From: Escherichia coli
Lineage (GTDB): Bacteria; Pseudomonadota; Gammaproteobacteria; Enterobacterales; Enterobacteriaceae
Length of the DNA stretch: 64,000 nucleotides
NCBI RefSeq assembly: GCF_965641715.1
Contig: NZ_OZ282453.1
Direction: 5' to 3' (one strand)
In this document: positions 48,487 to 51,400 of the stretch, piece after piece
How positions within the stretch are numbered: position 1 is the stretch's first letter
Layout of the letters: the number at the start of each line of letters is the position of its first letter
Program-made: the position numbers

Positions 48487-51400
48487 TAATCTCGATTGAT
48501 ATCGAACAAAGGGCCTGCGGGCCCTTTTTTCATTGTTTTCAGCGTACAAACTCAGTTTTTTGGTGTACTCTTGCGACCGTTCGCATGAGGATAATCACGT
48601 ATGGAAATAAGCTTTACCCGCGTGGCACTGCTGGCTGCCGCGCTCTTCTTTGTTGGTTGCGATCAAAAACCACAACCCGCCAAAACCCACGCTACTGAAG
48701 TTACCGTTCTTGAAGGCAAAACTATGGGTACCTTCTGGCGTGCCAGCATCCCGGGCATTGACGCCAAACGCAGCGCCGAGCTCAAAGAGAAGATTCAGAC
48801 CCAGCTGGACGCCGACGATCAGCTGCTTTCGACCTATAAAAAAGATTCCGCGCTGATGCGCTTTAACGATTCGCAAAGTTTGTCGCCGTGGCCGGTAAGT
48901 GAAGCGATGGCCGATATCGTCACCACCTCGCTGCGCATTGGCGCAAGGACCGATGGTGCGATGGATATAACCGTCGGGCCGCTGGTGAATCTGTGGGGCT
49001 TTGGCCCGGAACAACAGCCGGTTCAAATTCCGAGCCAGGAACAGATCGATGCGATGAAAGCCAAAACCGGCTTACAGCACCTGACGGTCATTAATCAGTC
49101 GCATCAGCAATATCTGCAAAAAGACCTGCCGGATTTATATGTCGATCTCTCCACCGTCGGTGAAGGTTATGCGGCGGATCACCTGGCACGCTTGATGGAG
49201 CAGGAAGGGATTTCCCGCTATCTGGTGTCGGTGGGCGGCGCGCTGAACAGCCGTGGTATGAACGGTGAAGGCCTGCCGTGGCGGGTAGCGATTCAAAAAC
49301 CAACCGATAAAGAAAACGCGGTTCAGGCTGTGGTGGATATCAACGGTCATGGGATTAGCACCTCTGGCAGCTACCGTAACTATTACGAACTGGACGGCAA
49401 ACGTCTTTCCCATGTTATCGATCCGCAAACCGGGCGTCCCATCGAACACAATCTGGTATCCGTGACGGTGATTGCTCCGACGGCGCTGGAAGCCGATGCC
49501 TGGGATACTGGCTTGATGGTACTCGGGCCGGAGAAAGCCAAAGAGGTTGTTCGCCGGGAAGGGCTGGCGGTTTATATGATCACCAAAGAAGGCGATAGCT
49601 TTAAAACCTGGATGTCACCACAGTTTAAAAGCTTCCTTGTCAGCGAAAAAAATTAAAGCGCAAGATTGTTGGTTTTTGCGTGATGGTGACCGGGCAGACT
49701 AAAGGCTATCCTTAACCAGGGAGCTGATTATGAAAAACGCCACATGCTTAACTGACGATCAACGCTGGCAATCTGTCTTAGCCCGCGACCCGAATGCCGA
49801 CGGCGAATTCGTTTTCGCCGTGCGCACCACAGGCATCTTTTGCCGTCCGTCTTGCCGCGCCAGACATGCCTTGCGGGAAAATGTCTCCTTCTACGCAAAT
49901 GCCAGCGAGGCACTCGCCGCCGGATTTCGCCCCTGCAAACGCTGCCAACCTGATAAAGCCAATGCCCAGCAACATCGGTTGGATAAAATCACCCACGCGT
50001 GTCGACTGCTGGAACAGGAAACGCCTGTAACGCTGGAAGCCTTAGCCGACCAGGTGGCGATGAGTCCGTTCCATCTGCATCGTTTATTTAAAGCCACCAC
50101 CGGAATGACGCCAAAAGCCTGGCAACAGGCCTGGCGCGCTCGTCGCTTGCGCGCATCGCTGGCGAAAGGCGAGAGCGTCACCCAGGCGATTCTGAACGCT
50201 GGATTTCCCGACGGCAGTAGTTATTACCGCAAAGCCGACGAAACGCTGGGAATGACGGCTAAACAGTTTCGTCACGGTGGCGAAAACCTGGCTGTGCGTT
50301 ATGCGCTGGCTGATTGTGAGTTGGGCCGTTGCCTGGTGGCAGAAAGCGAGCGGGGGATTTGCGCGATTCTGCTGGGCGACGATGACGGGATGTTGATTAA
50401 CGAACTCCGTCAAATGTTTCCTGCCGCCGACAATGCGCCTGCTGACCTGATGTTTCAGCAACATGTGTGTGAAGTGATTGCCAGCCTCAATCAGCGCGAT
50501 ACGCCGCTGATGTTACCGCTGGATATTCGGGGAACCGCTTTTCAACAACAAGTCTGGCAGGCGCTACGCACTATTCCTTGTGGTGAAACGGTGAGTTACC
50601 AGCAACTGGCGAACGCGATTGGCAAACCTAAAGCCGTTCGCGCGGTAGCCAGTGCCTGCGCCGCCAATAGATTAGCTATTATTATCCCTTGTCATCGGGT
50701 AGTACGCGGTGATGGCGCACTTTCTGGTTACCGCTGGGGCGTGTCGCGCAAAGCGCACTTGCTGCGCCGCGAAGCTGAACATGAGGAGAGGTAATGTTGG
50801 ATCTGTTTGCTGATGCTGAACCGTGGCAAGAATCGCTGGCTCCCGGCGCGGTGATTTTGCGCCGTTTTGCTTTTTACTCTGCGGAACAACTGATGCTCGA
50901 TATCAGTGACGTTGCCAGCCAGTCGCCATTTCGCCAGATGGTCACCCCCGGCGGATATACCATGTCGGTAGCGATGACCAACTGCGGGCATCTGGGCTGG
51001 ACAACCAATCGGCAAGGTTATCTCTATTCGCCCATTGATCCGCAAACAAATAAACCGTGGCCCGCCATGCCGCAGAGTTTTAATGATTTATGTCATCACG
51101 CGGCCACGGCGGCGGGTTATCCAGATTTCCAGCCTGACGCTTGCCTAATCAACCGCTACGCCCCTGGTGCGAAACTGTCGCTGCATCAGGATAAAGACGA
51201 ACCGGAGCTGCGTGCACCGATTGTTTCTGTTTCTCTGGGCTTACCCGCGATTTTTCAATTTGGCGGCCTGAAACGAAATGATCCGCTAAAACGTTTGTTG
51301 TTGGAACATGGCGATGTGGTGGTGTGGGGCGGTGAGTCGCGGCTGTTTTATCACGGCATTCAACCGCTCAAAGCGGGGTTTCATCCACTCACCGCCGACT

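What the first reader, a model, noticed from the sequence alone, without database searches (positions are those of the whole stretch)
49650..50800. Ada box overlapping the apbE stop codon, and one-nucleotide ada/alkB stop-start overlap
The AAAGCGCA Ada box (49655..49662) overlaps the apbE TAA stop codon (49654..49656), so the adaptive-response promoter is embedded in the end of the upstream gene. The ada stop and alkB start share a nucleotide (TAATG at 50792..50796), consistent with tight translational coupling of the two repair enzymes.
Basis: partly seen in the sequence, partly recalled or inferred. Interest (0 to 1): 0.3.

Follow-up and report, generated by a model that had tools for sequence, protein, structure and literature searches.

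The report
Standard ada promoter and ada-alkB junction
This is the well-known alkylation-damage (Ada) promoter and ada-alkB operon of E. coli; both sequence overlaps are real and conserved across enteric bacteria, but they are already annotated and ordinary.

Summary
Both observations are correct to the base. The apbE stop TAA is at 49654-49656 and AAAGCGCA at 49655-49662. The ada stop and alkB start share base 50794 (TAATG, 50792-50796).

The locus is ompC-apbE-ada-alkB-yojI. E. coli K-12 has the same geometry, and its sequence from the apbE tail to the ada start differs at 2 of 171 positions. So the Ada site described for K-12 is this site.

Comparison of about 80 Enterobacteriaceae species adds detail:
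- The conserved operator is AAT-N6-GCAA. Its AAT half-site is the last sense codon (Asn) of apbE and the TAA stop lies in the spacer, in 76 of 79 loci.
- That Asn codon is AAT in 74/74 loci, whereas other conserved Asn codons in apbE mix AAT and AAC. This shows DNA-level constraint.
- A -10-like CAnnnT sits exactly 31 nt after GCAA in 80/80 loci.
- The T[AG]ATG stop/start overlap is kept in 74/79 loci, with a Shine-Dalgarno core in 77/79.

Translational coupling is plausible but untested. alkB has its own ribosome-binding site, and published basal AlkB counts are lower than Ada counts.

In passing: ada codons ~113-354 plus alkB are an import from a cryptic Escherichia lineage, absent from 5,421 complete E. 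coli genomes.

Verdict: already known, low interest.

The parts
48601..49656 (+). apbE (ftp) coding sequence, FAD:protein FMN transferase. The last 26 residues lie outside the Pfam ApbE domain.
   Evidence: ORF. Pfam PF02424 covers residues 42-325, E = 2.9e-83. Annotated as apbE/ftp in K-12.
49646..49652 (+). A7 tract inside apbE codons 349-351 (GAA AAA AAT). It is the A/T-rich upstream flank of the Ada site, at inferred positions -62 to -56.
   Evidence: Sequence. The block is A-rich in most of the 79 loci. The UP-like role is recalled from Landini & Volkert 1995 and was not re-read here.
49651..49653 (+). Ada A box AAT, which is also the last sense codon (Asn351) of apbE. Inferred positions -57 to -55.
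   Evidence: AAT-N6-GCAA starts 3 nt before the apbE stop in 76/79 loci. The codon is AAT in 74/74 loci with a terminal Asn, whereas six other conserved Asn columns mix AAT and AAC. A/B box definition from PMC4437013.
49654..49656 (+). apbE stop codon TAA, lying in the 6-nt spacer of the Ada site.
   Evidence: The apbE stop is TAA in 76/77 loci, against 56/77 for the ada stop.
49655..49662 (+). Classical Ada box octamer AAAGCGCA. Inferred positions -53 to -46.
   Evidence: Named as the ada-promoter Ada-contact sequence in PMC3788762. The exact octamer occurs at the promoter in only 14/79 loci, mainly Escherichia (12 overlapping the apbE stop as here, 2 just downstream of it); most others have AATTAAAAAGCAAG.
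49660..49663 (+). Ada B box GCAA. Inferred positions -48 to -45.
   Evidence: GCAAG is invariant in the 79-locus alignment.
49664..49677 (+). Conserved block GATTGTTGGTTTTT. It contains the inferred weak -35 region GTTTTT (49672-49677), 17 bp upstream of the -10-like hexamer.
   Evidence: Conservation. The -35 assignment is inferred. No sigma-70 consensus promoter was called here, as expected for an activator-dependent promoter.
49695..49700 (+). Inferred -10 hexamer CAGACT (CAGCCT in K-12), pattern CAnnnT.
   Evidence: It starts exactly 31 nt after the B box in 80/80 loci, with A2 and T6 invariant. This is an inference; it was not mapped here.
49707..49713 (+). Conserved TAnnCTT (TATCCTT). 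The inferred transcription start is the A at 49708, giving a 22-nt leader.
   Evidence: TA is invariant and CTT is >=90% conserved. The distance to the -10-like hexamer is 11-12 nt in 64 loci. In K-12 tiling-array data the apbE transcript segment ends about 20 nt upstream of the ada ATG, equivalent to window ~49710 at 7-14 nt probe spacing.
49718..49723 (+). ada Shine-Dalgarno sequence AGGGAG, 6 nt before the ATG.
   Evidence: Sequence. (A/G)GGAG is conserved in the alignments.
49730..50794 (+). ada coding sequence (354 aa), the bifunctional regulator and methyltransferase.
   Evidence: Pfam Ada_Zn_binding, HTH_AraC, Methyltransf_1N and DNA_binding_1. PDB matches 1SFE, 1WPK, 1ZGW, 1U8B, 1ADN. 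C38, C42, C69, C72, R45, R71, F114, H115, R118 and C321 are all present.
50783..50788 (+). alkB Shine-Dalgarno sequence GAGGAG, inside the last ada codons and 5 nt before the alkB ATG.
   Evidence: Sequence. A GGAG/GAGG/AGGA core lies within -16 to -4 in 77/79 loci.
50792..50796 (+). TAATG: ada stop (50792-50794) and alkB start (50794-50796) sharing one base.
   Evidence: The same arrangement is in K-12. T[AG]ATG is found in 74/79 loci.
50794..51444 (+). alkB coding sequence (216 aa), Fe(II)/2-oxoglutarate DNA dioxygenase.
   Evidence: Pfam 2OG-FeII_Oxy_2, E = 1.5e-59. H131, D133, H187, R204 and R210 are present.
51520..53163 (+). yojI (ABC exporter), 75 nt downstream of alkB with no predicted terminator between them. 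Possibly co-transcribed.
   Evidence: A K-12 tiling-array transcript spans ada, alkB and yojI (PMC6505713).

Best explanation
This is the canonical Ada-dependent promoter of the ada-alkB operon, in an E. coli strain.

Established for K-12 and transferred here by sequence identity: Ada that has taken a methyl group onto Cys38 binds the bipartite operator, A box AAT (49651-49653) and B box GCAA (49660-49663), and recruits RNA polymerase to a promoter with a poor -35 region.

Inferred here: the -10 hexamer is CAGACT (49695-49700). Transcription starts near A49708. That places the operator at about -57 to -45.

Shown from sequence: the transcript carries ada and alkB, whose stop and start codons share base 50794. 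The alkB Shine-Dalgarno sequence lies in the last ada codons.

Inferred and not tested: ribosomes finishing ada can reinitiate on alkB, and free ribosomes can also load directly on the alkB site.

Because apbE ends only 73 nt before ada, the upstream half of the operator is written in apbE's last codons and its stop codon. The two functions share those bases. Selection on the operator fixes the synonymous choices: AAT (never AAC) and TAA (almost never another stop).
For: - Sequence and ORFs match the reported coordinates.
- K-12 has the same gene order, the same 73-nt gap and the same 1-nt overlap. The promoter region matches at 169/171 bases. It is present in 5421/5426 E. coli genomes.
- The literature gives AAAGCGCA and AAT(N6)GCAA as the Ada contact sequences of the ada promoter, with A and B boxes seen in structure 1ZGW, and describes ada-alkB as one operon.
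- The window's Ada keeps every DNA-contact, zinc-binding and methyl-acceptor residue.
- The operator register relative to the apbE stop is conserved in 76/79 loci.
- The terminal Asn codon is AAT in 74/74 loci, while other conserved Asn columns are mixed. The apbE stop is TAA in 76/77 loci, against 56/77 for ada.
- CAnnnT sits exactly 31 nt after GCAA in 80/80 loci.
- T[AG]ATG is kept in 74/79 loci and an alkB Shine-Dalgarno core in 77/79.
- There is no terminator-like site between apbE and ada. At the ada-alkB junction none is called either; the nearest terminator-like hits begin about 40 nt inside alkB (50834-50865) and their fold is no better than shuffled sequence.
Against: - Nothing here measures Ada binding, the transcription start or induction in this strain.
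- The primary mapping papers (Teo 1986, Nakamura 1988, Sakumi & Sekiguchi 1989, Landini & Volkert 1995, Kondo 1986) are not held in the library. The '-60 to -40' position therefore rests on my recollection plus the spacing inference.
- A second, better -10-like element, TAnnCT at 49707-49712, is also fully conserved. It could be the true -10, although its distance from the operator varies (42-53 nt).
- Coupling is not demonstrated. alkB has its own strong Shine-Dalgarno sequence, no masking RNA structure, and published basal AlkB counts lower than Ada counts.
Confidence: 0.93

Rival explanations
1. The AAAGCGCA match at the apbE stop is a chance octamer, and the functional Ada site of this promoter lies elsewhere.
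For: The octamer occurs 9 times in the window against about 5 expected, so it is not significant on its own. A second copy lies inside ada at 50750-50757. Most Enterobacteriaceae lack the exact octamer at the promoter.
Against: The site is base-identical to the K-12 ada promoter, for which this sequence is the reported Ada contact. The broader AAT-N6-GCAAG motif is in the same register in 76/79 loci, with invariant spacing to a -10-like hexamer. Synonymous positions are frozen. The internal copy is not conserved: 23/81 loci.
Confidence: 0.02
2. The overlap with apbE is itself regulatory. apbE transcription has no terminator before the ada promoter, so it reads through the operator into ada. 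That read-through would supply or modulate basal Ada, or would occlude the promoter.
For: No terminator-like site lies between the apbE stop and ada. In K-12 tiling-array data the apbE transcript segment runs 54 nt past the apbE stop, to about 20 nt before the ada ATG. The apbE-ada adjacency and the 66-83 nt gap are conserved in nearly all of the ~80 species compared.
Against: Basal Ada is only about 1 molecule per cell, so any read-through must be very weak. An ada-promoter reporter moved to the intS site behaves like the native gene. The array segment boundary may simply mark where the induced transcript starts. Compact genomes often place promoters at gene ends without any function in the overlap.
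Confidence: 0.12
3. The TAATG overlap is a by-product of compact operon packing. alkB is translated mainly by independent initiation at its own Shine-Dalgarno sequence, not by reinitiation from ada.
For: There is a strong GAGGAG 5 nt upstream of the ATG, conserved in 77/79 loci. The junction RNA folds no better than shuffled sequence (z = 0.22). Basal AlkB is less abundant than Ada. In the same K-12 neighbourhood, 1-nt overlaps also occur at atoD/atoA and nrdB/yfaE, and 4-nt overlaps occur in the ccm, nap, ato and glp operons.
Against: The stop-to-start distance never exceeds a few nucleotides: overlap in 74/79 loci, and gaps of 0-2 nt between stop and start in the intact exceptions. This is what selection for reinitiation predicts. 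The two mechanisms are not mutually exclusive.
Confidence: 0.4

Closest known systems
E. coli K-12 ada promoter and ada-alkB operon (b2213-b2212)
   Same: Same gene order (ompC-apbE-ada-alkB-yojI), the same 73-nt apbE-ada gap, an identical operator and -35 region, and the same TAATG junction.
   Different: One base differs in the -10-like hexamer (CAGACT against CAGCCT) and one in ada codon 3. From about codon 113 of ada to the end of alkB the window carries a non-coli allele that is 83-90% identical to K-12.
Salmonella typhimurium ada promoter (GAATTAAAACGCA, Hakura et al. 1991, as quoted in PMC3788762)
   Same: Same AAT-TAA-A..GCA core. The AC variant of the two variable bases is also seen here, in 3 loci including Kosakonia.
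   Different: The octamer differs (AAAACGCA).
E. coli aidB and alkA promoters (the other Ada-regulon promoters)
   Same: They use the same A box and B box recognition by methylated Ada.
   Different: They lie at different distances from the start site, and alkA uses a different activation mode. An A rather than a C lies 5' of GCAA, with about 10-fold lower affinity reported. They were not examined in this window.
Short stop/start overlaps in bacterial operons (TAATG, ATGA)
   Same: The 1-nt overlap with a Shine-Dalgarno sequence inside the upstream gene is the commonest operon junction type. Examples nearby are atoD/atoA and nrdB/yfaE.
   Different: Nothing distinguishes this junction from the general class.

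Membership tests
Ada-dependent promoter, ada/aidB type | Bipartite operator: A box AAT, 6-nt spacer, B box GCAA | tested here: met
   AATTAAAGCGCAA at 49651-49663. Definition from PMC4437013 and PMC3788762.
Ada-dependent promoter, ada/aidB type | Classical octamer AAAGCGCA | tested here: met
   Present at 49655-49662.
Ada-dependent promoter, ada/aidB type | Operator just upstream of a weak -35 region, about -60 to -40 from the start site | tested here: inconclusive
   The start site was not measured. The inferred -10 CAnnnT lies at a fixed 31 nt from GCAA in 80/80 loci, which puts the operator at -57 to -45. The tiling-array boundary near 49710 is compatible. The published position is from memory only.
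Ada-dependent promoter, ada/aidB type | Sequence identity with the experimentally studied K-12 promoter | tested here: met
   169/171 bases identical, and the operator is 100% identical. Some E. coli genomes match the 116-nt segment at 100%.
Ada-dependent promoter, ada/aidB type | The cognate Ada protein has the Cys38 methyl acceptor, the zinc cysteines and the DNA-contact residues R45, R71, F114, H115, R118 | tested here: met
   All are present. Domains; PDB matches 1ZGW and 1U8B.
Ada-dependent promoter, ada/aidB type | Binding by methylated Ada and induction by methylating agents | not testable with these tools
   Needs a footprint, EMSA or a reporter assay.
ada-alkB operon | ada followed by alkB on the same strand, with no promoter or terminator between them | tested here: met
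   The terminator-like hits at 50834-50865 lie inside alkB and are not significant (z = -0.55).
ada-alkB operon | Co-transcription from the ada promoter | not testable with these tools
   Reported for K-12. Not measurable for this strain here.
Translationally coupled overlapping gene pair | Stop and start codons overlap or abut, and this is conserved among relatives | tested here: met
   TAATG at 50792-50796. T[AG]ATG in 74/79 loci.
Translationally coupled overlapping gene pair | Downstream translation depends on translation of the upstream gene | not testable with these tools
   alkB has its own Shine-Dalgarno sequence and no masking structure. Published basal counts are Ada about 1 per cell, against one AlkB in about 20% of cells, which argues against 1:1 output.

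The most novel reading that the evidence does not exclude
The Ada operator has been locked into the last codon and the stop codon of apbE throughout the Enterobacteriaceae, and apbE transcripts have no terminator before the ada promoter. On this reading they read through the operator and set or modulate the roughly one-molecule basal Ada level. That level determines the stochastic delay of the adaptive response.
Probability: 0.12. Interest if true: 0.4.

Novelty: already known. Interest (0 to 1): 0.12.

Why it matters
The finding changes little. The ada promoter, its Ada box and the ada-alkB operon have been textbook material since the 1980s, and the reference annotation already shows both overlaps.

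The small added value is comparative:
- The operator's AAT half-site doubles as apbE's last codon. Its synonymous choice, and the TAA stop, are frozen across about 80 enterobacterial species. This is a clean example of regulatory DNA constraining a coding sequence.
- The invariant 31-nt spacing to CAnnnT gives a sequence-based assignment of the core promoter.

If apbE read-through contributed to basal Ada, it would bear on the origin of cell-to-cell variation in alkylation repair. Current evidence does not favour that idea.

Tried and rejected
- **Sigma-70 consensus scan of 48400-51700.** It found no promoter at the ada promoter. That is expected for an activator-dependent promoter, so it is not evidence against one.
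- **RNA fold of the ada/alkB junction (50755-50835).** No better than shuffled sequence (z = 0.22), so there is no sign of a Shine-Dalgarno-masking structure that would enforce coupling.
- **Terminator-like hairpin inside alkB (50844-50864).** The fold is not significant (z = -0.55). It is created by synonymous differences from K-12 and is treated as chance.
- **Second AAAGCGCA inside ada (50750-50757) as an internal alkB promoter.** It has no AAT at the A-box position, ends in GCAC rather than GCAA in the window, and is present in only 23/81 loci. Rejected.
- **Conserved TAnnCTT as an RNA hairpin in the leader.** RNAalifold gives no consensus structure over 62 sequences. Rejected.
- **TAnnCT as the -10 of the Ada-dependent promoter.** Disfavoured because its distance from the operator varies (42-53 nt), whereas CAnnnT is fixed at 31 nt.
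- **Primary mapping papers and the Landini & Volkert review.** They could not be read because they are not held.
- **Full-text searches.** No explicit statement was found about the apbE-stop/Ada-box overlap or the ada/alkB codon overlap.

Full report
**Observation**

The sequence is as described. The apbE ORF (48601-49656) ends ...AGC GAA AAA AAT TAA, with the stop at 49654-49656. AAAGCGCA occupies 49655-49662. The ada ORF is 49730-50794 and alkB is 50794-51444, and TAATG at 50792-50796 shares base 50794 between the ada stop and the alkB start.

Neither motif is significant on its own. The octamer occurs 9 times in the window against 5.0 +/- 2.2 expected. AAT-N6-GCAA occurs 7 times against 15.6 expected. 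The case for function therefore rests on position and conservation.

**Identity of the locus**

Pfam assigns ApbE, Ada (Zn-binding, AraC-type HTH and two methyltransferase domains), AlkB (2OG-Fe(II) oxygenase) and an ABC exporter. The Ada protein matches PDB entries 1SFE, 1WPK, 1ZGW, 1U8B and 1ADN.

The window's Ada keeps C38, C42, C69, C72, R45, R71, F114, H115, R118 and the PCHR C321 motif. AlkB keeps H131, D133 and H187.

The 2.2-kb query matches apbE-ada-alkB in 5421 of 5426 complete E. coli genomes. K-12 has the same 73-nt gap and the same one-base overlap.

From the last 64 nt of apbE into the first ada codons, the window and K-12 differ at 2 of 171 positions, and neither difference is in the operator. 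The 116-nt promoter segment is >=99% identical in 3727 E. coli genomes and 100% identical in some.

**Comparison with what is known**

Open-access sources state the following:
- Methylated Ada contacts AAAGCGCA in the ada promoter.
- The core recognition sequence is AAT(N6)GCAA, with an A box and a B box defined structurally in 1ZGW.
- A C immediately 5' of GCAA gives the ada promoter about 10-fold higher affinity.
- The Salmonella version is GAATTAAAACGCA.
- ada and alkB form one operon (PMC3788762 and PMC4437013).

A K-12 tiling-array study detected an induced transcript spanning ada, alkB and yojI (PMC6505713).

The primary mapping papers are not held. My statement that the site lies 60-40 bp upstream of the start site is recalled from the Landini & Volkert 1995 abstract and was not re-read.

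**Comparative anatomy**

One scan with the Ada protein returned 80 loci, one per species, from Escherichia, Citrobacter, Enterobacter, Klebsiella, Raoultella, Kosakonia, Leclercia and others. Nearly all have apbE, ada and alkB in the same order, with a 66-83 nt apbE-ada gap.

- In 76 of 79 loci, AAT-N6-GCAA begins exactly 3 nt before the apbE stop. The A box is therefore apbE's last sense codon (Asn) and the TAA stop lies in the operator spacer.
- The exact octamer AAAGCGCA occurs at the promoter in only 14 of the 79 loci, mainly Escherichia. In 12 it overlaps the apbE stop as in the window; in the other 2 it lies just downstream of the stop. Most loci read AATTAAAAAGCAAG.
- The terminal Asn codon is AAT in 74/74 loci. 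Six other conserved Asn columns of ApbE mix AAT and AAC (10-51 AAT of about 75).
- The apbE stop is TAA in 76/77 loci, against 56/77 for the ada stop.

These frozen synonymous choices show selection on the DNA, not only on the protein. The last 26 ApbE residues also lie outside the Pfam domain.

**Core promoter (inferred)**

A hexamer CAnnnT, with invariant A2 and T6, starts exactly 31 nt after GCAA in 80/80 loci. In the window it is CAGACT at 49695-49700. A 17-bp spacer puts the -35 region on the conserved T-tract GTTTTT (49672-49677).

A further conserved element, TAnnCTT (49707-49713), lies 11-12 nt downstream of the hexamer start in 64 loci, so its invariant A (49708) falls at the expected start site. 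Its distance from the operator varies in Citrobacter, and it forms no conserved RNA structure.

With +1 at 49708, the A box is at -57 to -55, the stop codon at -54 to -52, the octamer at -53 to -46 and the B box at -48 to -45.

In the K-12 array data, the uninduced apbE transcript segment ends about 20 nt upstream of the ada ATG. That is equivalent to window ~49710 at 7-14 nt probe spacing, which is compatible.

**The ada/alkB junction**

- T[AG]ATG is present in 74/79 loci. The intact exceptions have a gap of only 0-2 nt between stop and start.
- A Shine-Dalgarno core lies within -16 to -4 of the alkB start in 77/79 loci. In the window it is GAGGAG at 50783-50788.
- The junction RNA folds no better than shuffled sequence.
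- One- and four-base overlaps are common in the same K-12 neighbourhood: atoD/atoA, nrdB/yfaE, and the ccm, nap and glp operons.
- Published single-molecule counts give basal Ada at about 1 per cell, and a single AlkB in only about 20% of cells (PMC8643705).

Proximity is clearly selected, but equimolar 'tight' coupling is neither shown nor suggested.

**Consequence of the apbE overlap**

No terminator-like site separates apbE from ada, and the array segment for apbE crosses the operator. Read-through into ada is therefore possible. However, basal Ada is extremely low, and an ada-promoter reporter placed at another chromosomal site behaves like the native gene. I give a regulatory role for the overlap a low probability.

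**Side finding: an imported tract**

The strain is E. coli. Its nrdA and nap regions are 99.6-99.8% identical to many E. coli genomes, and the median identity to K-12 is 97.8%.

Window 50100-51400 is different. It is at most 90.6% identical to every complete E. coli genome and 98-100% identical to Escherichia sp. E1V33.

Informative sites place K-12-type sequence at 48422-50047 and E1V33-type sequence at 50068-51395 (131 sites against 3). K-12-type sequence resumes at 51474-52342, and E1V33-type sequence returns from 52371 to at least 53278.

So the promoter and the first third of ada are native. The rest of ada, the junction and alkB are imported, and the architecture is unchanged by the import.

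**Verdict**

Both overlaps are real, conserved and correctly interpreted. They are known features of a textbook operon and carry little novelty.

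Noticed in passing
window 50068-51395 and 52371 to at least 53278: Two tracts are 98-100% identical to the cryptic-clade Escherichia sp. E1V33. One covers ada codons ~113-354 plus all of alkB; the other covers the 3' half of yojI. The ada/alkB tract is at most 90.6% identical to all 5421 complete E. coli genomes, while the rest of the window is ordinary E. coli. This looks like an interspecies recombination import with a breakpoint inside ada, giving a chimeric Ada protein.
   Followed up: partly
window 49707-49713: TAnnCTT (TATCCTT) is conserved in all ~62 distinct leader sequences, with TA invariant. It lies at the inferred ada start site. It resembles a -10 hexamer more than CAnnnT does, but its distance to the operator varies, and there is no conserved RNA structure. 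Its role is unknown; it may be a start-site or initial-transcribed element, or a second promoter.
   Followed up: partly
window 50750-50757: A second exact AAAGCGCA lies inside ada, 37 nt before the alkB start. It lacks the AAT half-site, ends in GCAC here, and is present in only 23/81 loci. It is probably a by-product of the Lys-Ala codons.
   Followed up: yes
window 50844-50864: A terminator-like GC hairpin followed by a T-run lies 50 nt into alkB. It is created by synonymous differences from K-12. The fold is not better than shuffled sequence (z = -0.55).
   Followed up: yes
L023:2271-2501 (Citrobacter sedlakii) and L066:2264-2501 (Klebsiella indica): Insertions of about 155 nt lie between the conserved -10-like element and the ada ribosome-binding site, giving a gap of 227-234 nt instead of about 73. 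The L066 insert has inverted-repeat ends and may be a small mobile element sitting in the ada leader.
   Followed up: no
window 46941-47034 (- strand): The MicF small RNA lies divergent from ompC (Rfam RF00033, 116.8 bits), as in K-12.
   Followed up: yes
window 47800-48300: The central part of ompC is hypervariable: 64-84% identical to K-12 and to the other Escherichia loci in its most divergent stretch (47901-48200). This fits the known diversification of porin surface loops and makes this neighbourhood a likely recombination hotspot.
   Followed up: no
window 39967-40118: Relative to K-12, about 7.3 kb carrying the atoSCDAEB genes (K-12 2320000-2327366) is absent from the window.
   Followed up: no
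window 15780-17668: About 1.9 kb has no counterpart in K-12, at the inaA-yfaH/glpQ junction (K-12 ~2349655). Its content was not examined.
   Followed up: no
L071 (Leclercia adecarboxylata NCTC13032), L079 (Citrobacter koseri), L019 (Citrobacter amalonaticus): apbE (L071, L079) or ada (L019, L079) reading frames are interrupted in these assemblies, yet the AATTAAAAAGCAAG operator at the apbE end is intact. These may be pseudogenes or assembly errors.
   Followed up: no
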